Assembly (NCBI GenBank): GCA_038063735.1
Contig: JBBTUN010000001.1
Span: 9,751 to 73,750 of the forward strand
Source of the DNA: Patescibacteria group bacterium
GTDB lineage: Bacteria; Patescibacteriota; Microgenomatia; Curtissbacterales; GWA2-41-24
Direction: 5' to 3'
DNA length: 64,000 nucleotides
The translations under genes and the position numbers were made by a program. The notes beneath the pieces were generated by a model, which was given only the letters and a program-made list of their open reading frames with translations, did no database searches and was not told where the DNA came from. This document shows, piece by piece, positions 7,875-23,219 of this stretch (the stretch's first letter is position 1; each line of letters begins with the position of its first letter).

Positions 7875-9338
7875 GTGCTTGCTCTACTGCGTGATAGAAA
7901 AATGTTATATCATTTCCATATGGACAAGTCTGTTTTAGGACTATTAGAAAAAATTGAAGGGGCCGGATTTGAGGTCGCATTAGTGGGTGGCGCTGTTCGG
8001 GATATTTTAAGTGGAGAGGAGGCTCACGATTGGGATTTTACAACAAACGCAAAGCCTGAGGAGATTTTGAAGCTCTTTGGTGATGCTTTTTATAACAATG
8101 CCTTTGGAACAGTTGGTGTTCCTATTGGCAAAAAAGTGCTGGAAATTACTACGTATAGGTCCGAAAAGGGTTACTCCGACAGCCGCCATCCTGATGCTGT
8201 TGTGTGGGGAAAAACTTTAGAGGATGATCTAAAAAGACGCGATTTCACGGTCAACGCCATGGGACTTAGGAGAGAGACAAAGGGGCAAAGGGACCCCTCG
8301 AAGAAGCTCCGGGCAAGCAAAGGGACGAGGTACATAAAGGTTGGAAGTGCTGATTGGGAAGTTGTAGATTTGTTTGGTGGGCAGGAGGATTTAAAAAATA
8401 AGATTATTCGGGCTGTTGGCGATGCAGACGAAAGGTTTAGGGAAGACGCTTTAAGAATACTACGGGCAGTAAGATTTTCAACAACATTGGGTTTTGGCAT
8501 AGAAGAGGCGACCGGTCAGGCAATTAAAAAAAATGTCCAACTTCTAGAAAAAATATCTGGTGAAAGAATCCGGGAGGAGTTGTTTAAAATCGTTGCAAGC
8601 GATAATGGTGACCGTGGATTATTCCTGGCAAGGGATACCGGCGTATTAAAAATTATTTTGCCTGAACTGGACAGATGCTTTAGCGTTGAGCAAAAAAGTC
8701 CAAAAAGGCATCACATTTACGACGTTGGAACACACTGCGTTATGAGCATGAAGAATTGCCCGAGCACAAAAAAAATTGTGCGTTTTGCAACGCTTCTTCA
8801 TGACATTGGTAAAGCTGATGTTGCAAACATTACCCAAGAAGGGATAAGAACTTTTTATAATCATGAAGTAAAAGGCGCACACAGCGCAAATAAAATTTCC
8901 GACAGGCTTCATCTTTCAAAAGATGCCAAAACTAAAGTTTTTAAATTGGTAAGGTGGCATCAATTTTCTGTTAGCGAGGACCAGACTGACCGCGCAATAA
9001 GACGCTTTATTAATAATGTTGGCCAAGACAACGTTGAGGACATGATGGATCTTAGAATTGGAGATAGGCTGGGTGGCGGCCTTGAGGAGCCGGAAAGCTG
9101 GCGACTTAAACTCTTTCGAAAAAGGATTAAAGAGGTGCTGACGAAGCCTTTTATGGTTGCTGATCTTAAGATTAACGGACGGGATGTGATGGAAGTTCTT
9201 GGGATAAAACCTGGACCAAAAGTTGGAGAGATTTTAAATATACTTTTTGAAGAGGTTGTGGATGATGAGAATAAGAATGATCGGGAATATTTGACTAAGA
9301 GAGTTAGAGAGCTGGAGAGTAATAGAGAAAAAGAGTGA
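7875..9338 (+). CDS. cca: CCA-adding tRNA nucleotidyltransferase with HD domain
   Basis: GGAVRDIL marks the Pol-beta NTase head and LLHDIGK the HD domain. The true start is probably ATG at 7902 or 7920 (MDKSVLGLL...). There is a ~35-aa basic insertion after NAMGL. Confidence 0.8.
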   Translation: MLALLRDRKMLYHFHMDKSVLGLLEKIEGAGFEVALVGGAVRDILSGEEAHDWDFTTNAKPEEILKLFGDAFYNNAFGTVGVPIGKKVLEITTYRSEKGYSDSRHPDAVVWGKTLEDDLKRRDFTVNAMGLRRETKGQRDPSKKLRASKGTRYIKVGSADWEVVDLFGGQEDLKNKIIRAVGDADERFREDALRILRAVRFSTTLGFGIEEATGQAIKKNVQLLEKISGERIREELFKIVASDNGDRGLFLARDTGVLKIILPELDRCFSVEQKSPKRHHIYDVGTHCVMSMKNCPSTKKIVRFATLLHDIGKADVANITQEGIRTFYNHEVKGAHSANKISDRLHLSKDAKTKVFKLVRWHQFSVSEDQTDRAIRRFINNVGQDNVEDMMDLRIGDRLGGGLEEPESWRLKLFRKRIKEVLTKPFMVADLKINGRDVMEVLGIKPGPKVGEILNILFEEVVDDENKNDREYLTKRVRELESNREKE

Positions 9339-9445
9339 GAGAAATTTTTTTGCTTTTGGGTTGATGGACACGCGATAAGTCTGCTTATAGAAAACTCATT
9401 AAAACAAAACAAACAGGTGTTGATATATTTTTTGTTGACCACAGG

Positions 9446-9967
9446 TTGATTAATATTAATAATCCAGCTGAGAGTATCAAGAAAATCTGTAATGATAGTG
9501 ATTTTAAAAAGGTGTCTGTTGTTGGTCATTCGATAGGGGGCTTTTTTGCTATTAAGTTTGCGGCAAGTTTTCCTGAGTCGGTTGATAGATTATTTCTTAT
9601 AGACTCGGAGGGTGTATACGAGAAGGAAAAGATCGAGAGTTTGTTTATTAACTTTGCACGAACTCACCTTAAACATGGCAAAGCAAAGGCACTTAATAAT
9701 ATTAAGTCGGTTTACAATTTGTTAAAAAATCCCCTTTTTATGATAAGACTAGTGAGACTAGCTCACCTTGGTGATTTGACTGGCGATCTATTTAAAATAA
9801 GCGCAAAGACGACAATTATTTGGGGTCGGGAAGATAGACTTACACCGGTTTGGCAGGGAGAGATAATGAACAAGTTTCTTAGAAATTCTAAGCTAATTGT
9901 TTTAGCTGGAATGGACCACGATTGGATTTTGCACAAACCTCAGTTATTTTGGGAAAATTACAAATAA
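9446..9967 (+). pseudogene. N-terminally truncated alpha/beta hydrolase remnant
   Basis: The nucleophile elbow VVGHSIGG sits only ~30 aa from the start, so the usual ~50-aa N-terminal beta-strands are missing. The upstream frame is closed by TAG at about 9372. Confidence 0.45.
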
Positions 9968-10013
9968 TCTAAAGAGCTATAGGGCTAGAGAGTTAAAGAG
10001 TGGAAAGAATATT

Positions 10014-19927: not shown

Positions 19928-20472
19928 CATTTTGATAGATACAGTGAAAGTTTCTTTAATGCTTTTGCGCGGTGGGAAATTTTGTTTTTAAGTATTGGAT
20001 CTAGTTGGGCATAAGTTTTGTTGTATCCTGTTGGAATAAAAATTCTGTCAAAACCAAAACCGCTTTCTCCCTTGTTGGTTTTGGATAGAGTACCTTTTAC
20101 TACGCCTTTAAAGATTTTTAATTTTTGCCCGTCGTAAGCGCCAATGGCTGCAGTTACCGTTGTGTCTGATGAGTTTTTGCCGATTAGTTTTACTGTGCCT
20201 TCGGTGCCGATTTTCATCAGAAAAAATTTTATGAAAGTTCCCGGCAAGCCATTGAGTGCTTTTATTTCAAAGCTGATATCCTCAACAACCACGGGTTTTT
20301 TGACAATTTCGTAGGCTGCTTTTGCTTTTGCCTTAATTACTTTGTCTATATCTAGTGATTGGATTTCGTCAAGATCTAGTTCTTTAATTTTGATGTCAGG
20401 ACCTAAGATTTGTCTAATTTCCAAAGCTTTATTTTTATTGGAGGTGATGAAAGTAAAGTATTTAAGATTCAT
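19927..20472 (-). CDS. rdgB: RdgB/Ham1 family non-canonical purine NTP pyrophosphatase (dITP/XTP-ase)
   Basis: TSNKNKALEI, FGFDRIFIP and SHRAKAL motifs. Its start overlaps the RT stop by 4 nt (ATGA). Confidence 0.85.
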   Translation of the reverse strand: MNLKYFTFITSNKNKALEIRQILGPDIKIKELDLDEIQSLDIDKVIKAKAKAAYEIVKKPVVVEDISFEIKALNGLPGTFIKFFLMKIGTEGTVKLIGKNSSDTTVTAAIGAYDGQKLKIFKGVVKGTLSKTNKGESGFGFDRIFIPTGYNKTYAQLDPILKNKISHRAKALKKLSLYLSK

Positions 20473-21497
20473 GATTTTAAATAATAACTGTTTTTCAAGC
20501 TTTGTTGCAATTTAAAACTTTTTGCATGAGAAAAATAACCAAGATATGACTGTAGCGACTGATTCTCAATATACCTTTCTGCAACTTTCTTAAGAATTCT
20601 TCTTTTAGTTTTTGTCCTTGGCAAAGTATGATGAGGCAGGACAATATAGCCGCAAAAGTCGATTCCCCATTTTAACTTTCTCAAAGAGATTTTGTTCGGA
20701 TGAAGCTCCAGTTTTAACTGATCCTTTAAAAAATCGACAATTGAAACCAAATAACTATTTAGTTTTCCAACATCCGTATTAATAATAGTAAAGTCATCAG
20801 CGTAGCGCAGGTAATATTTGATTTTCAGATCGCGTTTGATAAACTGATCAAGTTCGTTCAAATAGATATTGGCAAAAATTTGGCTTGTTAAATTGCCAAG
20901 AGGAATACCTTTTCCAGAGCCTGCTTCTGAATGAAAACTATCTATAACTTCATCAATAAGGTTACTAATATTCTGGTCTTTTACTTTTTTGTACAGCAGG
21001 TTTTTTAAAATGTTATGGTCGATGGAATCGAAAAACTTTTTAATGTCTAGCTTCAAAGCCCAACATTCTCTTGTGTAATTATGGCTAACAATTCTTGCAA
21101 ACGTCTCCAGGCGCCTGACTGCTTTATGCGTCCCTTTTCCAGTTCTGCAAGAGTAAGAATCGCAGATGAACGTTTTATCATATATCTGGTAAAGATGTTT
21201 ATACAATAAATGGTGAAGAACCCTATCTGTCGCATTCGATTTATGGATATGCCTTCTTTTAGGGTCATTTACATAAAAATCTTTGTACGTGCCGTGTCTG
21301 TAAGTTTTATTTTTTAACCTATGGTGCAGGTCAAAAATATTATCTTCAAGATGAAGTTCGAGAATTTGTATATCATGCTTGCCATGTTTTCCCTTTTTAA
21401 ATTCTTCCCATGCTTGAAAAAGGTTTTCAATTGATATTAAACTGGAGTAAGTCATAACTTTTGAATTTTGCGTTTTGACATTTGAACTACTAAACAT
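20469..21497 (-). CDS. diversity-generating retroelement (DGR) reverse transcriptase
   Basis: RT motifs including YADDF. PLGNLTSQIFANIYL carries the DGR-typical [ILV]GxxxSQ in place of QGxxxSP. 342 aa. A cognate TR/VR pair lies nearby. Confidence 0.8.
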   Translation of the reverse strand: MFSSSNVKTQNSKVMTYSSLISIENLFQAWEEFKKGKHGKHDIQILELHLEDNIFDLHHRLKNKTYRHGTYKDFYVNDPKRRHIHKSNATDRVLHHLLYKHLYQIYDKTFICDSYSCRTGKGTHKAVRRLETFARIVSHNYTRECWALKLDIKKFFDSIDHNILKNLLYKKVKDQNISNLIDEVIDSFHSEAGSGKGIPLGNLTSQIFANIYLNELDQFIKRDLKIKYYLRYADDFTIINTDVGKLNSYLVSIVDFLKDQLKLELHPNKISLRKLKWGIDFCGYIVLPHHTLPRTKTKRRILKKVAERYIENQSLQSYLGYFSHAKSFKLQQSLKNSYYLKS

Positions 21498-21859
21498 GCC
21501 CCCCCCCCACGGACTTTGCGCCTGATATCCCCATATTTTCCAAACTTTACGACTTTTACAAAAATCTAAGTGGGGAAATTGAAAAATTCCCCAAGACTAA
21601 ACGTTATGGTCTGGGAGCAAAGCTTGATCAGATCGCGCTTGAGCTAATTGAGCTTATCGTGCGGGCAAGCTACTTGCAGCGCGAGCAGAAATTGCCTGTT
21701 CTGGAAAAATCTGTTATATCTGCCGATATTCTTAAGATACTATTAAGACTTGCTAAAGATACCAAAGCGATTGACAATAAAAAATACTTACAGCTAGAAA
21801 GTAATCTTCAGGAAATCGGCCGCATGATTGGCGGCTGGAAACGCTCAATAACAAAGTAA
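21496..21859 (+). CDS. avd: Avd (DGR accessory variability determinant, four-helix-bundle protein); reading frame interrupted by a C10 homopolymer
   Basis: The frame from 21500 to 21859 encodes ...YDFYKNLSGEIEKFPKTKRYGLGAKLDQIALELIELIV...LQEIGRMIGGWKRSITK, which is bAvd-like (compare ...EVGRILGSWIAR). ATG at 21496 is in frame only if the run is C9. As assembled (C10) the ATG frame stops at 21525, and the first in-frame start is GTG at 21659. Confidence 0.55.
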
Positions 21860-21917
21860 AGTTAAGGGAGATACTACAAACAGATCGCAATACCTCCCTT
21901 AAAATACAATTGCAAAA

Positions 21918-22038
21918 TACTCCCGAGGAACGTCCACCAAGATTCGAATTGTGATTGTCAGCGTTCAGATTCGAATTGACGTTCAAGTTGCCGTCACTGT
22001 TGAAGTTCGCATTGATCATGCGACCGTCGTTACGGGAA
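21918..22038 (-). repeat. DGR template repeat (TR), 121 bp, sense on the minus strand
   Basis: Identical to 22414-22534 except at 24 positions, and at every one of them the TR has A on the minus strand. Rich in AAC codons (the spurious ORF 21753..22046). Confidence 0.85.
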
Positions 22039-22401
22039 CCGACCACTAAATTTGCTTTGTGCCATCAGTAGTCACTGCGCCTTCACTTAGATTAGCCAAG
22101 TGTTACCGCTGTATTTTATTTGGAAGCAGCCCTTTGAGTGAACGAAGAACATCTTCACAAGCACAAAACAAGGAGTTTCTTGCTTCTCTATTGCAACGCT
22201 CTAAGCATCCGTGAATGCTTAGATTCTGGCAACTATTTTGAAAATCAAGGATTTTGGTGACCTAAAACCGTAGTTTCAGATGCATTAACCTAATCTCGGA
22301 GTTAGTATAAAAGAGAACTTATTTTCTCACAAGCTCGAAAATTAAAAAAAATTCGAAAAGAACAAAGTTTAAAGAATAAAAAAGTATAAAGGGTCAAAGG
22401 C

Positions 22402-23163
22402 TTAAGCTTTCTTTACTCCCGAGGAACGCCCACCAAGAAGCGAATGGTGATTGTCAGCGCGCAGACCCGAAGCGACGCGCAAGCTGCCGTCACCGCCGAA
22501 GCCCGCAACGACCATGCGACCGCCGCCACGGGAAGCAAGTCGAACCCATGTGCTTACTTCATCTAAATATTTTCCTGTAAATAGCTTACTGTCCTGGCCA
22601 GCAACAATGTATTGGTTAAGATTAAGTATTGTTCTGCCGTCCTTTTTTATTCTTTCCATGAGCTCCTTTTCTTTAGTGTCAAGGTAAGGTGCGTCAATTG
22701 CAGCTTCGTAATCAAAATAGCCCGATGGGTTTTCGTCATTAGTTACAGAATTGCCTTCTTGGACACTGTGACTTTGCATTTTTGGAAACATTTCGCCCAA
22801 AAGATGACGAGTTTCTTGAGTTGCTACTGCTTGTGGAAGAACACCAACTCTGATATTTCTCTTCTCACGTTCTTTCAATTCTTTTTCACTGAGAGGACAC
22901 TGAGCAATATCGAAAGTTACACCAATAAGTTTGCCTCGAGCTTCCCAAATTCGACCAAATGTGTTGGTAACTGCATCTGGAGTATCTAGTTTAAATTCCG
23001 TGACCCCTTCCGCTTTGGGTACAGAAGTTCTTTGGCCATTGTCAAAATGTTCAGGTGCGCCAAGTTGTCTTGCAAGCTGCGCGTTTGCATTAAGGAAGGC
23101 ACGGAGGTGCTTAAATTGATCTCCTTTGAATTCTCCGGCTAATTTTTCTATGTCTGCTGACAT
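22402..23163 (-). CDS. DGR target (variable) protein, 253 aa, VR-encoded C-terminus
   Basis: The C-terminal ...WVRLASRGGGRMVVAGFGGDGSLRVASGLRADNHHSLLGGRSSGVKKA is encoded by the VR. No obvious signal peptide. Noticeably GC-richer than its surroundings. Confidence 0.75.
   Translation of the reverse strand: MSADIEKLAGEFKGDQFKHLRAFLNANAQLARQLGAPEHFDNGQRTSVPKAEGVTEFKLDTPDAVTNTFGRIWEARGKLIGVTFDIAQCPLSEKELKEREKRNIRVGVLPQAVATQETRHLLGEMFPKMQSHSVQEGNSVTNDENPSGYFDYEAAIDAPYLDTKEKELMERIKKDGRTILNLNQYIVAGQDSKLFTGKYLDEVSTWVRLASRGGGRMVVAGFGGDGSLRVASGLRADNHHSLLGGRSSGVKKA
22414..22534 (-). repeat. DGR variable repeat (VR) at the 3' end of the target gene
   Basis: Counterpart of the TR. All 24 differences fall at TR adenines. 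Ends 12 nt before the target gene stop. Confidence 0.85.
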
Positions 23164-23219
23164 GATAAGAGCGAATTATACAGTGCTATAGGTCTTTTGT
23201 CAAGCATGAAATGCGCTTT

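What the first reader, a model, noticed from the sequence alone, without database searches (positions are those of the whole stretch)
20469..23163. Complete diversity-generating retroelement: target(VR)–TR–avd–RT
An exact 121-bp repeat pair is present: TR at 21918-22038 and VR at 22414-22534. They differ at 24 positions, and at every one the TR carries an adenine on the minus (sense) strand, while 10 TR adenines are unchanged. No non-adenine mismatch exists. The VR encodes the C-terminus of a 253-aa protein. The TR lies in non-coding DNA and is full of AAC codons. A 342-aa reverse transcriptase with the DGR-specific [ILV]GxxxSQ motif (PLGNLTSQ) and YADD lies 400 bp further along the same strand. 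This is the signature of adenine-directed mutagenic retrohoming, and the 24 of 34 substituted adenines suggest the element has recently been active.
Basis: partly seen in the sequence, partly recalled or inferred. Interest (0 to 1): 0.85.

Follow-up and report, generated by a model that had tools for sequence, protein, structure and literature searches.

The report
Active DGR with repeat-switched accessory gene
This is a real and recently active diversity-generating retroelement in a Patescibacteria (CPR) genome. Its essential helper gene avd sits on the opposite strand behind a slippery C10 repeat that knocks its start codon out of frame, which points to a built-in on/off switch for the mutagenesis.

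Summary
TR 21918-22038 and VR 22414-22534 (minus strand) are 121 nt long and differ at 24 positions. All 24 are TR adenines, and 10 adenines are unchanged.

- **RT:** it groups with the Bordetella DGR RT, not with group II intron or retron RTs.
- **Target:** the 253-aa protein models as a C-type-lectin/FGE fold.
- **Recent activity:** a sibling assembly is 100% identical over about 3.1 kb except at 18 VR positions, all of them TR adenines.

- avd lies on the plus strand, opposite to RT, TR and VR.
- The avd ATG is followed by a C10 tract and is out of frame. C9 or C12 would restore the frame.

Across 62 related CPR loci, 54 carry a simple repeat at this same spot: poly-C, (CA)n, (CT)n, or 4- and 5-nt units. 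Forty-two are out of frame and 11 in frame, while 59 of 61 avd bodies are intact. Two loci differ only by one CA unit. I infer a phase-variable, or slippage-dependent, Avd.

A conserved, covarying RNA of about 260 nt lies upstream of the TR and pairs with the TR 3' end.

Verdict: a known kind of element in a new variant.

The parts
23175..23203 (-). Candidate promoter of the target gene (TTGACA-17-TATAAT, 12/12 match), 12 nt upstream of the start codon
   Evidence: This is a consensus match only and was not tested.
22402..23163 (-). Target (variable protein) gene, 253 aa. Soluble, with no hydrophobic segment. Residues ~60-250 form a C-type-lectin/FGE-like fold.
22414..22534 (-). VR (variable repeat), covering the last ~40 codons of the target
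   Evidence: It differs from the sibling strain L001 at 18 positions, all TR adenines.
22040..22305 (-). Conserved structured RNA directly 5' of the TR. It has eight helices, including hairpins 22281-22260 and 22223-22200, the long helix 22171-22160 with 22063-22052, and hairpin 22109-22077.
   Evidence: RNAalifold gives 59 pairs, 45 of them with compensatory changes. 92.1% of cells are paired, against 75.1% in shuffles (0 of 500 as high) and 42-47% when partners are slid. nhmmer finds one copy per locus, always between VR and TR on the TR strand.
22172..22183 (-). Upstream strand (GCAAGAAACTCC) of a long-range helix that closes the TR
   Evidence: The near-invariant ACU core appears in the 48-sequence alignment. 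The strand covaries with the TR 3' end. Native duplexes average -13.0 kcal/mol against -8.4 for non-native pairings, p=1.4e-10.
21918..22038 (-). TR (template repeat), 34 adenines. It is identical in all assemblies of this strain.
21912..21923 (-). Downstream strand (GGAGTATTTTGC) of the closing helix. It spans the last 6 nt of the TR plus 6 nt of TR-specific flank.
   Evidence: In the window the helix is 6+6 bp with one A.A mismatch.
21862..21902 (.). Hairpin between the convergent TR and avd. It looks like a terminator on the minus strand. Many relatives have a G+C-rich hairpin at the same place.
21496..21859 (+). avd (accessory variability determinant), on the strand opposite to RT, TR and VR. 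The ATG at 21496-21498 is out of frame. The Avd frame runs 21509-21856 with its stop at 21857-21859.
   Evidence: Pfam bAvd PF22296 at 62.6 bits (cut-off 40). NCBIfam DGR Avd NF033474 at 78.4 bits (cut-off 80). Frames; tblastn. NCBI annotates a 108-aa 'four helix bundle protein' whose length and first residue imply a non-canonical start.
21499..21508 (+). C10 homopolymer directly after the avd ATG. C9 or C12 would give M-PPP(P)-T-DFAPDIPIF...
   Evidence: It is the only G/C run of 7 or more in the 64-kb window. Simple repeats occupy this position in 54 of 62 related loci.
21414..21443 (+). Candidate avd promoter (TTGAAA-18-TAAACT), inside the 5' end of the RT coding region
   Evidence: A 9/12 consensus match only.
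20469..21455 (-). DGR reverse transcriptase, 328 aa from Met at 21455. The ORF stays open up to 21497, whose ATG shares the palindrome CATG with the avd ATG.
   Evidence: RVT_1 at 80.7 bits. Best PDB hit 8ub7 at 134 bits. LGNLTSQ and YADD motifs. Public gene calls give 328 aa.

Best explanation
A chromosomal diversity-generating retroelement of a Patescibacteria (CPR) bacterium.

Shown directly: the TR (21918-22038) is a copy of the VR (22414-22534) that differs only at adenines. The VR has been rewritten at TR-adenine positions between otherwise identical strains.

Inferred from the known DGR mechanism: a minus-strand RNA carries a ~260-nt structured leader, the TR, and a 3' flank that pairs back onto the leader. 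The DGR-type RT, together with Avd, reverse-transcribes this RNA and misincorporates opposite template adenines. The cDNA then replaces the VR. This diversifies the ligand-binding face of a soluble C-type-lectin-fold protein.

New and inferred: in this lineage avd is inverted, and its 5' coding end holds a hypermutable simple repeat, C10 in this window. Repeat length decides whether the ATG is in frame with Avd. Here it is out of frame, so the element is 'OFF', one C away from ON. Slipped-strand changes in the tract (C9 or C12) would switch Avd on and off heritably and reversibly, and with it mutagenic retrohoming. RNA-polymerase or ribosome slippage might instead supply a trickle of Avd.

My confidence by component:
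- That this is an active DGR: about 0.97.
- That the repeat gates Avd expression: about 0.65.
- That the leader RNA is part of the DGR RNA and closes on the TR 3' end: about 0.7.
For: DGR:
- The A-only TR/VR pattern is exact.
- The RT is nearest to the 8ub7 RT.
- Avd matches the Pfam and NCBIfam DGR-Avd models.
- The target has a CLec/FGE fold.
- The sibling assembly is 100% identical except at 18 VR positions, all TR adenines.
- Fifty-four held loci, relatives plus further assemblies of this strain, show the same VR-spacer-TR layout with A-only pairs; avd, where detected, lies antisense between TR and RT.
- The substitution spectrum over 49 unique TR/VR pairs is A>G 59%, A>T 23%, A>C 18%. This matches the C-misincorporation bias of bRT measured in cells (59.3%, PMC12875486).

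Switch:
- The avd ATG is out of frame and no alternative canonical start exists.
- Of 62 non-redundant related loci, 54 have a simple repeat at the avd 5' end: 29 poly-C, 20 (CA)n, and also (CT)7, (AATC)19 and two pentanucleotide (CAGGA) arrays. The clear repeats have unit sizes of 1, 2, 4 or 5, never 3 or 6; one weak (AAAT)3 is also counted. Of the 54, 11 are in frame, 42 out of frame and 1 has no start.
- Repeat density at this spot is 8.7 per kb, against 0.074 per kb elsewhere in the same loci. C10 is the only G/C run of 7 or more in the window.
- L044 and L046 are identical over 1650 nt apart from (CA)7 versus (CA)6.
- In-frame relatives read M-PPP-T-DF... exactly as this locus would with C9.
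- The protein database holds 22 Avd homologues with PPP N-termini, 32 with HT-repeat N-termini, and 9 truncated ones.
- 59 of 61 avd bodies have no internal stop. Synonymous codon differences exceed non-synonymous ones, 38 to 16 and 39 to 13. These genes are therefore not pseudogenes.
- Relatives without a repeat have an ordinary in-frame ATG 2-13 codons before the conserved DIPIF motif.
- In 8 distant viral DGRs avd is co-oriented with the RT, has an in-frame ATG and has no repeat.

RNA.
Against: - There is no read-level or experimental evidence of switching.
- All assemblies of this strain show C10: window, L001, L037 and L038. No C9 or C12 allele of this strain appeared among the protein-database hits.
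- The in-frame fraction, 11 of 53, is below the one-third expected if frame were random (p=0.03). In-frame alleles alone therefore do not prove the repeat is translated. The excess of OFF alleles could instead mean constant slippage-dependent expression.
- NCBI annotates a 108-aa Avd whose length implies an Ile-codon start.
- On the RT strand the repeat lies in the RT leader, so it could affect the RT instead of Avd, or as well as Avd.
- In the window the closing RNA helix has an A.A mismatch.
- No promoter or transcript has been mapped.
- No hairpin or cruciform follows the VR, unlike in BPP-1.
Confidence: 0.68

Rival explanations
1. An ordinary, constitutively expressed DGR. Avd is translated from a non-canonical start downstream of the tract, for example the conserved Ile codons of DIPIF as the NCBI annotation implies. 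The repeat would be a neutral or leader-sequence feature with no effect on Avd.
For: NCBI calls a 108-aa Avd starting MFSKLY.... All assemblies of this strain have C10, yet the VR has diversified. The in-frame fraction is no higher than chance.
Against: Relatives without a repeat use a normal ATG just upstream of DIPIF. In 11 loci the ATG abuts the poly-C tract. The repeat type changes (C, CA, CT, AATC, CAGGA) while its position is kept, and unit sizes are never a multiple of 3. No GGAGG-type Shine-Dalgarno sequence precedes the Ile codons in the window (sequence).
Confidence: 0.12
2. Expression by slippage rather than heritable switching. The out-of-frame tract is the working state, and RNA-polymerase slippage or ribosomal frameshifting on the repeat yields a small constant amount of Avd. 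This keeps DGR activity low.
For: Out-of-frame alleles predominate, 42 to 11, below the random expectation for in-frame. C10 is the commonest poly-C length, usually one C more than the in-frame length. The strain with C10 has nevertheless diversified its VR.
Against: The correction needed is +1 in some loci and -1 or +2 in others, even at the same tract length. I know of no frameshift-prone role for (CA)n or for 4- and 5-nt repeats (own knowledge). Repeat number does differ between otherwise identical loci, and in-frame alleles are common in databases.
Confidence: 0.18
3. A decaying element. avd is a frameshifted pseudogene, and the VR/TR differences are relics of past activity.
For: The start codon is out of frame. 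L003 and L095 have an internal stop in avd.
Against: Eighteen VR changes, confined to TR adenines, separate two assemblies with zero other differences in about 3.1 kb. 59 of 61 avd bodies are intact and show an excess of synonymous changes. RT, TR and leader RNA are intact and conserved.
Confidence: 0.03

Closest known systems
Bordetella phage BPP-1 DGR (mtd-avd-TR-brt)
   Same: It shares the adenine-specific TR-to-VR information flow, with the VR at the 3' end of a C-type-lectin-fold gene. The RT is of the same clade (8ub7 is the best PDB hit) and an Avd four-helix-bundle accessory protein is present. The A>G-dominated spectrum matches bRT in cells.
   Different: The gene order here is target-[structured RNA]-TR-avd(inverted)-RT. 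avd carries a 5' simple repeat and an out-of-frame ATG. The conserved RNA structure lies 5' of the TR, whereas in BPP-1 the RT-10/spacer element lies between TR and RT (PMC5737381). No stem-loop follows the VR. The element is chromosomal, between guaA and a Ham1-family gene, not in a phage.
DGRs of CPR/DPANN organisms (Paul et al. 2017, Nat Microbiol; cited from my own knowledge and via PMC6602519, paper not readable here)
   Same: The host group is the same (Patescibacteria, with Curtissbacteria, Levybacteria, Shapirobacteria and Daviesbacteria among the relatives). They are chromosomal DGRs with CLec-type targets.
   Different: I found no description of a repeat-interrupted avd or of the leader RNA in the searchable library. 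I could not read the 2017 paper to confirm this.
Simple-sequence-repeat contingency loci (Neisseria, Haemophilus, Campylobacter; phage examples in PMC12633550)
   Same: A repeat with a unit size not divisible by 3 sits just after the start codon. Alleles are in and out of frame, repeat number varies between near-identical sequences, and the downstream ORF is intact.
   Different: The gated gene is not a surface, restriction-modification or receptor gene. It is the accessory factor of a targeted mutagenesis machine. Switching has not been observed within a population.
RT-11 / RT-16 RNA motifs (Rfam RF03106, RF03019; Weinberg et al. 2017, PMC5737381)
   Same: They share the block AUAAAAUACAG-stem-CAGUG (window 22119-22074) and the association with RT genes.
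   Different: Scores are far below gathering: 20.8 against 50 and 11.3 against 143.5. No related locus reaches gathering. The element here is larger, about 260 nt with eight helices.
Retron msr-msd RNA
   Same: Topology only. A structured RNA lies 5' of the template, and a helix joins a site in it to the 3' end of the template. This is like the a1/a2 pairing of retrons (own knowledge).
   Different: The RT is not a retron RT (27-59 bits). No msd or multicopy DNA is implied, and the priming site is unknown.
TvpA (Treponema denticola) and Mtd variable proteins
   Different: There is no detectable sequence similarity: no Pfam hit and no PDB sequence hit. The protein has no signal peptide or membrane segment. 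The same domain occurs without a nearby DGR at the N-terminus of ~450-aa actinobacterial proteins.

Membership tests
Diversity-generating retroelement (DGR) | TR/VR repeat pair whose mismatches are confined to adenines of the TR | tested here: met
   24 of 24 mismatches at TR adenines and 87 of 87 non-A positions identical
Diversity-generating retroelement (DGR) | RT of the DGR clade ([ILV]GxxxSQ in motif 4, YxDD), distinct from group II and retron RTs | tested here: met
   LGNLTSQ and YADD. 134 bits to the 8ub7 RT, against at most 76 bits for group II and at most 27 bits for retron RTs in PDB. Below the NCBIfam cut-offs for group II (143.8 vs 300) and retron (58.8 vs 235). No dedicated DGR-RT profile was available, and no phylogeny was built.
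Diversity-generating retroelement (DGR) | Accessory protein Avd (or an alternative) encoded next to the TR and RT | tested here: met
   PF22296 at 62.6 bits, above the cut-off of 40. NF033474 at 78.4 bits, just under the cut-off of 80. Caveat: the gene is on the opposite strand and its ATG is out of frame.
Diversity-generating retroelement (DGR) | VR at the 3' end of a target gene whose protein displays it on a C-type-lectin (or Ig-like) scaffold | tested here: met
Diversity-generating retroelement (DGR) | Ongoing mutagenic retrohoming (VR varies at TR-A positions among clonal relatives) | tested here: met
   L001, L002 and L039 differ from the window and L037 at 18 VR positions, all TR adenines. 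Flanks and TR are 100% identical. Read-level heterogeneity could not be tested.
Diversity-generating retroelement (DGR) | IMH with a G+C-rich element and a stem-loop just 3' of the VR (BPP-1 type) | tested here: not met
   The last 15 nt (CGTTCCTCGGGAGTA) are invariant and shared by TR and VR. The 100 nt after the VR have no stable hairpin (dG -2.2, z +1.9). This feature defines the BPP-1 subtype, not DGRs in general.
SSR-mediated phase-variable (contingency) gene | Simple repeat, unit size not divisible by 3, inside the 5' coding region between the start codon and the conserved protein body | tested here: met
   ATG-C10 in the window. 54 of 62 relatives have a repeat there, with unit sizes of 1, 2, 4 and 5. 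The enrichment is about 118-fold.
SSR-mediated phase-variable (contingency) gene | Both in-frame and out-of-frame alleles among relatives, with the ORF body intact | tested here: met
   11 ON, 42 OFF, 1 with no start. 59 of 61 bodies intact and synonymous changes exceed non-synonymous. Translated repeats (PPP, HTHT) occur in database proteins.
SSR-mediated phase-variable (contingency) gene | Repeat number varies between otherwise identical genomes or within a population | tested here: inconclusive
   L044 and L046 differ only by one CA unit over 1650 nt. All assemblies of the window strain show C10. No reads were available.
SSR-mediated phase-variable (contingency) gene | Expression of the gene product switches with repeat length | not testable with these tools
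   This needs reporter fusions or proteomics.
Rfam RT-16 (RF03019) / RT-11 (RF03106) RNA motifs | Score at or above the family's gathering threshold | tested here: not met
   20.8 vs 50 bits and 11.3 vs 143.5 bits. None of 20 related loci reaches gathering.
Retron | Retron-type RT with an msr/msd ncRNA | tested here: not met
   Retron RT models and structures score 27-59 bits, far below cut-offs and below the DGR RT match. Only the RNA topology resembles a retron.

The most novel reading that the evidence does not exclude
A whole clade of CPR DGRs places targeted hypermutation under a second, stochastic genetic switch. A hypermutable repeat in the 5' coding end of an inverted avd turns the accessory protein on and off heritably, so most cells carry a silent DGR and rare slippage variants diversify the target. 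The same clade uses a permuted, retron-like DGR RNA. Its structured (possibly priming) domain lies upstream of the TR and clamps onto the TR 3' end.
Probability: 0.5. Interest if true: 0.8.

Novelty: new variant of a known kind. Interest (0 to 1): 0.64.

Why it matters
How DGR activity is regulated in nature is an acknowledged open question. A 2026 paper calls it 'an exciting frontier' (PMC12875486).

If the avd repeat is a phase switch, it would be a natural on/off control on a DGR, and I found no description of one in the searchable literature. It is a mutator whose activity is set by a second mutable site. It could be tested directly by counting tract lengths and VR diversity in existing groundwater metagenome reads.

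The leader RNA and its pairing to the TR 3' end give a concrete, mutable model of how a non-Bordetella DGR RNA is organised. They also tie two orphan Rfam 'RT' motifs loosely to DGRs.

Even without these extras, the locus is a clean example of recent DGR activity in a CPR genome. Its target family is uncharacterised, adopts a lectin fold and is apparently cytoplasmic.

Tried and rejected
- **Other VRs:** a scan of both strands of the 64-kb window for further matches to the TR at non-A positions found none.
- **Second avd or RT in the window:** none.
- **Target family assignment:** Pfam and NCBIfam gave no hit. The PDB sequence search with the family profile gave nothing meaningful.
- **Avd against PDB sequences:** only spurious troponin hits from helical bias.
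- **BPP-1-like hairpin after the VR:** not present.
- **Rfam:** nothing at gathering in the window or in 20 relatives. There were only weak RT-16 and RT-11 similarities.
- **Homopolymer assembly error:** rejected as the main explanation. Several assemblies agree on C10. The (CA)n, 4-nt and 5-nt repeats show the same behaviour. One near-identical pair differs by exactly one CA unit.
- **A single programmed ribosomal frameshift:** unlikely, because the required shift direction differs among loci.
- **Actinobacterial homologues of the target:** these ~450-aa proteins have no RT, Avd or A-only repeat within 5 kb, and their neighbours were uninformative.
- **Viral contigs:** only distant RT relatives, at most 41% identity. 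They were used as an outgroup.
- **Literature:** searches for DGR with phase variation, SSR, homopolymer or opposite strand found nothing relevant. Paul et al. 2017 could not be read.
- **A covariance model of the leader RNA:** not built.


Full report
**1. The observation**

The window holds one long direct repeat, 21918-22038 and 22414-22534, 121 nt at 80% identity. Read on the minus strand, the two copies differ at 24 positions. In every case the copy at 21918-22038 has an adenine (17 A>G, 5 A>C, 2 A>T). Ten adenines of that copy are unchanged, and all 87 non-adenine positions are identical. Twenty-three of the 24 changes fall on first or second codon positions of the ORF that contains the other copy. 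The probability that 24 differences all fall on the 34 adenines by chance is about 1e-17. No further VR-like copy exists in the 64 kb.

**2. The parts**

*Reverse transcriptase.* The ORF 20469-21497(-) matches RVT_1 and carries LGNLTSQ and YADD. Its best relative among solved structures is the 328-aa reverse transcriptase of 8ub7, at 134 bits and E=1e-37. I take this to be Bordetella phage bRT. That identification is from my own knowledge, but the alignment shows IGSLTSQ and YMDD. Group II intron RTs reach at most 76 bits and retron RTs at most 27 bits. NCBIfam models for group II, retron and defence RTs are all far below their cut-offs. Relatives and public gene calls start the protein at Met15 (21455), giving 328 aa.

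*Avd.* It is present but on the plus strand (21496-21859), opposite to everything else. It matches Pfam bAvd at 62.6 bits (cut-off 40) and the NCBIfam DGR-Avd model at 78.4 bits (cut-off 80).

*Host and setting.* The host is a Patescibacteria MAG. The element sits among housekeeping genes: guaA, purC and purE on one side, and a Ham1-family gene, a GtrA-like gene and a nuclease on the other.

**3. Activity**

Another assembly (L001, GCA_964362505.1, and the ENA contig L002) aligns to the window over about 3.1 kb without a single difference outside the VR. The TR, avd and RT are identical. Inside the VR it differs at 18 positions, all of them TR adenines. A third contig (L037) has the window's VR. 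This is direct evidence that the VR has been rewritten from the TR very recently.

The same layout recurs in 54 held loci, which are relatives plus further assemblies of this strain. Each has a VR, a spacer of about 240-440 nt and a TR with perfect A-only pairs. Where avd was detected it lies antisense between TR and RT. Over 49 unique TR/VR pairs, 60% of TR adenines are substituted. The spectrum is A>G 59%, A>T 23%, A>C 18%. This agrees with the C-misincorporation bias of bRT measured in cells (59.3%; PMC12875486).

**4. The unexpected feature: the avd start**

On the plus strand the sequence reads ...AACATG-CCCCCCCCCC-ACGGACTTTGCGCCTGATATCCCC... With ten C's the ATG frame hits a stop after nine codons. 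The Avd frame has no ATG, GTG or TTG between the preceding stop and codon 55. C9 or C12 would give M-PPP(P)-T-DFAPDIPIF... The C10 run is the only G/C run of 7 or more in the 64 kb. It is C10 in every assembly of this strain that covers it.

I collected relatives through the target (34 genome loci) and the RT (80 metagenome loci). In nearly all of them avd is divergent from the RT. Of 62 non-redundant loci, 54 have a simple repeat at exactly this place, between an upstream ATG and the conserved (D/E)IPIF start of the Avd helix bundle. The repeat type differs between loci:
- poly-C of 7-12 in 29 loci;
- (CA)5-20 in 20 loci;
- (CT)7 in one, (AATC)19 in one, pentanucleotide (CAGGA) arrays in two, and one weak (AAAT)3.

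Database proteins add (GA)n-like and (CAGA)n-like footprints. No unit size is a multiple of three. Repeat density in this 102-nt zone is 8.7 per kb, against 0.074 per kb in the rest of the same loci.

In 11 loci the ATG is in frame through the repeat. For example, L042 has ATG-C9-ACGGACTTT, the window's sequence minus one C, and L113 has C12. In 42 loci the ATG is out of frame, and one locus has no candidate start. The eight loci without a repeat have an ordinary in-frame ATG 2-13 codons before the motif.

L044 and L046 are identical over 1650 nt except for (CA)7 versus (CA)6. Among the 120 best Avd homologues in the protein database, 22 begin with a PPP stretch, 32 carry HT repeats at the N-terminus (translated (CA)n), and 9 are truncated ORFs.

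The avd bodies are not decaying. Fifty-nine of 61 have no internal stop. Against two relatives, synonymous codon differences outnumber non-synonymous ones, 38:16 and 39:13.

In eight distant viral DGRs used as an outgroup, avd is co-oriented with the RT, starts at an in-frame ATG and has no repeat.

**5. Interpretation of the repeat**

The pattern has five elements:
- a hypermutable repeat with a non-triplet unit just after the start codon;
- turnover of repeat type with the position conserved;
- a mix of in-frame and out-of-frame alleles;
- length polymorphism between otherwise identical sequences;
- an intact, selected ORF body.

This is the classical signature of a contingency (phase-variable) gene, from my own knowledge of Neisseria, Haemophilus and Campylobacter loci.

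Avd is required for cDNA synthesis and retrohoming in the studied DGR (as summarised in PMC6602519 and PMC10053308). The likely consequence is a heritable, reversible on/off switch on mutagenesis, with this window in the OFF configuration.

Caveats:
- No reads were available.
- This strain is C10 everywhere it was seen.
- The in-frame fraction (11 of 53) is below the one-third expected at random (p=0.03). That is compatible with selection for OFF, but also with slippage-dependent low expression.
- NCBI's annotation implies a non-canonical start.
- On the RT strand the repeat lies in the RT leader, so an effect on the RT cannot be excluded.

A single programmed frameshift is unlikely, because the correction needed differs in direction among loci with the same tract length.

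I found no paper linking DGRs or Avd to simple repeats or phase variation. A 2026 paper states that natural regulation of DGRs is an open frontier.

**6. The VR-TR spacer is a structured RNA**

The 375-nt spacer is conserved in blocks across the lineage. RNAalifold on 12 sequences predicts eight helices with 59 pairs, 45 of which show compensatory changes. On the named structure:
- 92.1% of cells pair, against 75.1% in column shuffles (0 of 500 as high) and 42-47% when partners are slid;
- the covariation score is 0.586, against 0.27 in shuffles and 0.13-0.17 when slid.

Frequent G-U pairs place the RNA on the TR strand. A sequence profile finds one copy per locus, always on the RT/TR strand and between VR and TR wherever these are mapped (31 of 31). 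It finds a single copy in the window, at 22305-22043.

Nothing in Rfam reaches gathering, in the window or in 20 relatives. The block AUAAAAUACAG-stem-CAGUG (22119-22074) resembles RT-16 (20.8 vs 50 bits) and RT-11 (11.3 vs 143.5 bits). These are two of the 'RT motifs' of Weinberg et al. 2017, who showed that RT-10 lies between TR and RT in BPP-1 and speculated that other RT motifs serve other DGRs (PMC5737381).

A near-invariant segment, GCAAGACACUCC (window 22183-22172, GCAAGAAACTCC), is complementary to the last bases of the TR plus its TR-specific 3' flank (window 21923-21912, GGAGTATTTTGC). The two covary, for example CAAGA/TCTTG, CTAGA/TCTAG, CCGGA/TCTGG and TGAGA/TCTCA. Native duplexes average -13.0 kcal/mol against -8.4 for mismatched locus pairs (p=1.4e-10).

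The TR is thus closed by a helix between an upstream structured domain and its own 3' end. This topology recalls the retron msr/msd arrangement and is the reverse of BPP-1, where the structured spacer follows the TR. I infer that this RNA is the lineage's DGR RNA scaffold, and possibly its priming element. That inference is untested.

A hairpin at 21902-21862 separates the convergent TR and avd. No hairpin follows the VR.

**7. Comparison and verdict**

Membership in the DGR family is met on every general criterion tested: the A-only TR/VR pair, the DGR-type RT, Avd, the CLec target and recent VR turnover. Only the BPP-1-specific stem-loop after the VR is absent.

The element differs from described DGRs in three ways: avd is inverted, avd is gated by a repeat, and the leader RNA sits upstream of the TR. 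The genome is public, and the target and Avd are annotated only as 'hypothetical protein' and 'four helix bundle protein'.

I rate the element as a new variant of a known kind. The DGR itself is ordinary for CPR genomes. The repeat switch and the RNA topology carry the interest, and both are inferences that existing metagenome reads and simple reporter experiments could confirm or refute.

Noticed in passing
window 23175-23203 (-): A perfect 12/12 sigma-70 consensus (TTGACA-17-TATAAT) lies 12 nt upstream of the target gene start, in the short gap after guaA. This suggests strong independent transcription of the variable protein.
   Followed up: no
L013-L029, L032, L036 (e.g. L016:4947-6317, L013:5004-6350): The target's lectin-fold domain (37-49% identity, including the VR-equivalent region) forms the N-terminal half of the two actinobacterial ORFs examined, which are about 450 aa long. 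The domain occurs in Pseudonocardia, Dactylosporangium, Amycolatopsis and Ilumatobacteraceae, often with several paralogues per genome. No RT, Avd or A-only repeat lies within 5 kb. The C-terminal halves and neighbouring genes gave no functional clue.
   Followed up: partly
window 21494-21497: The avd ATG (plus strand) and the first ATG of the open RT frame (minus strand, 21497) share the palindrome CATG. In (CA)n relatives the two start codons overlap in CATATG, or the genes overlap head to head by about 24 nt. Each gene's promoter must therefore lie inside the other gene.
   Followed up: partly
L003 (avd codon 51) and L095 (avd codon 12): Two relatives have an in-frame stop inside avd. In L003 a TAG replaces the CAG of the window. 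These may be true pseudogenes or sequence variants.
   Followed up: no
L003, L005, L008, L033, L034 (record titles): Several contigs carrying this CPR-type DGR are titled 'uncultured Gammaproteobacteria bacterium' (TPA assemblies). Their genes are closest to Curtissbacteria and Levybacteria loci, so the labels look wrong.
   Followed up: no
window 21456-21495 and equivalent regions of relatives: The segment between the avd ATG and the RT start contains reiterated A/T-rich motifs (TTCAAA / AAAGTCAAAA type) that recur in many relatives. They could be promoter or leader elements shared by the divergent genes.
   Followed up: no
window 21933 / 22429 (repeat position 105): The 3'-most variable adenine lies only 15 nt from the end of the repeat, at a third codon position. 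It is G in the window's VR but A in the sibling strain. The invariant IMH-like end is therefore at most 15 nt (CGTTCCTCGGGAGTA), and TR and VR are identical over it.
   Followed up: partly
window 8001-10000: There is a GC-skew and AT-skew outlier here (+0.27, +0.09). It coincides with a plus-strand CCA-adding-enzyme-like gene among mostly minus-strand genes (recJ-like and secF-like neighbours). Nothing unusual was seen.
   Followed up: yes
L094:4809-4891 vs TR 2846-2928: One relative has a second A-only VR downstream of the RT as well as the usual upstream one. Some members of the lineage therefore diversify two targets.
   Followed up: no
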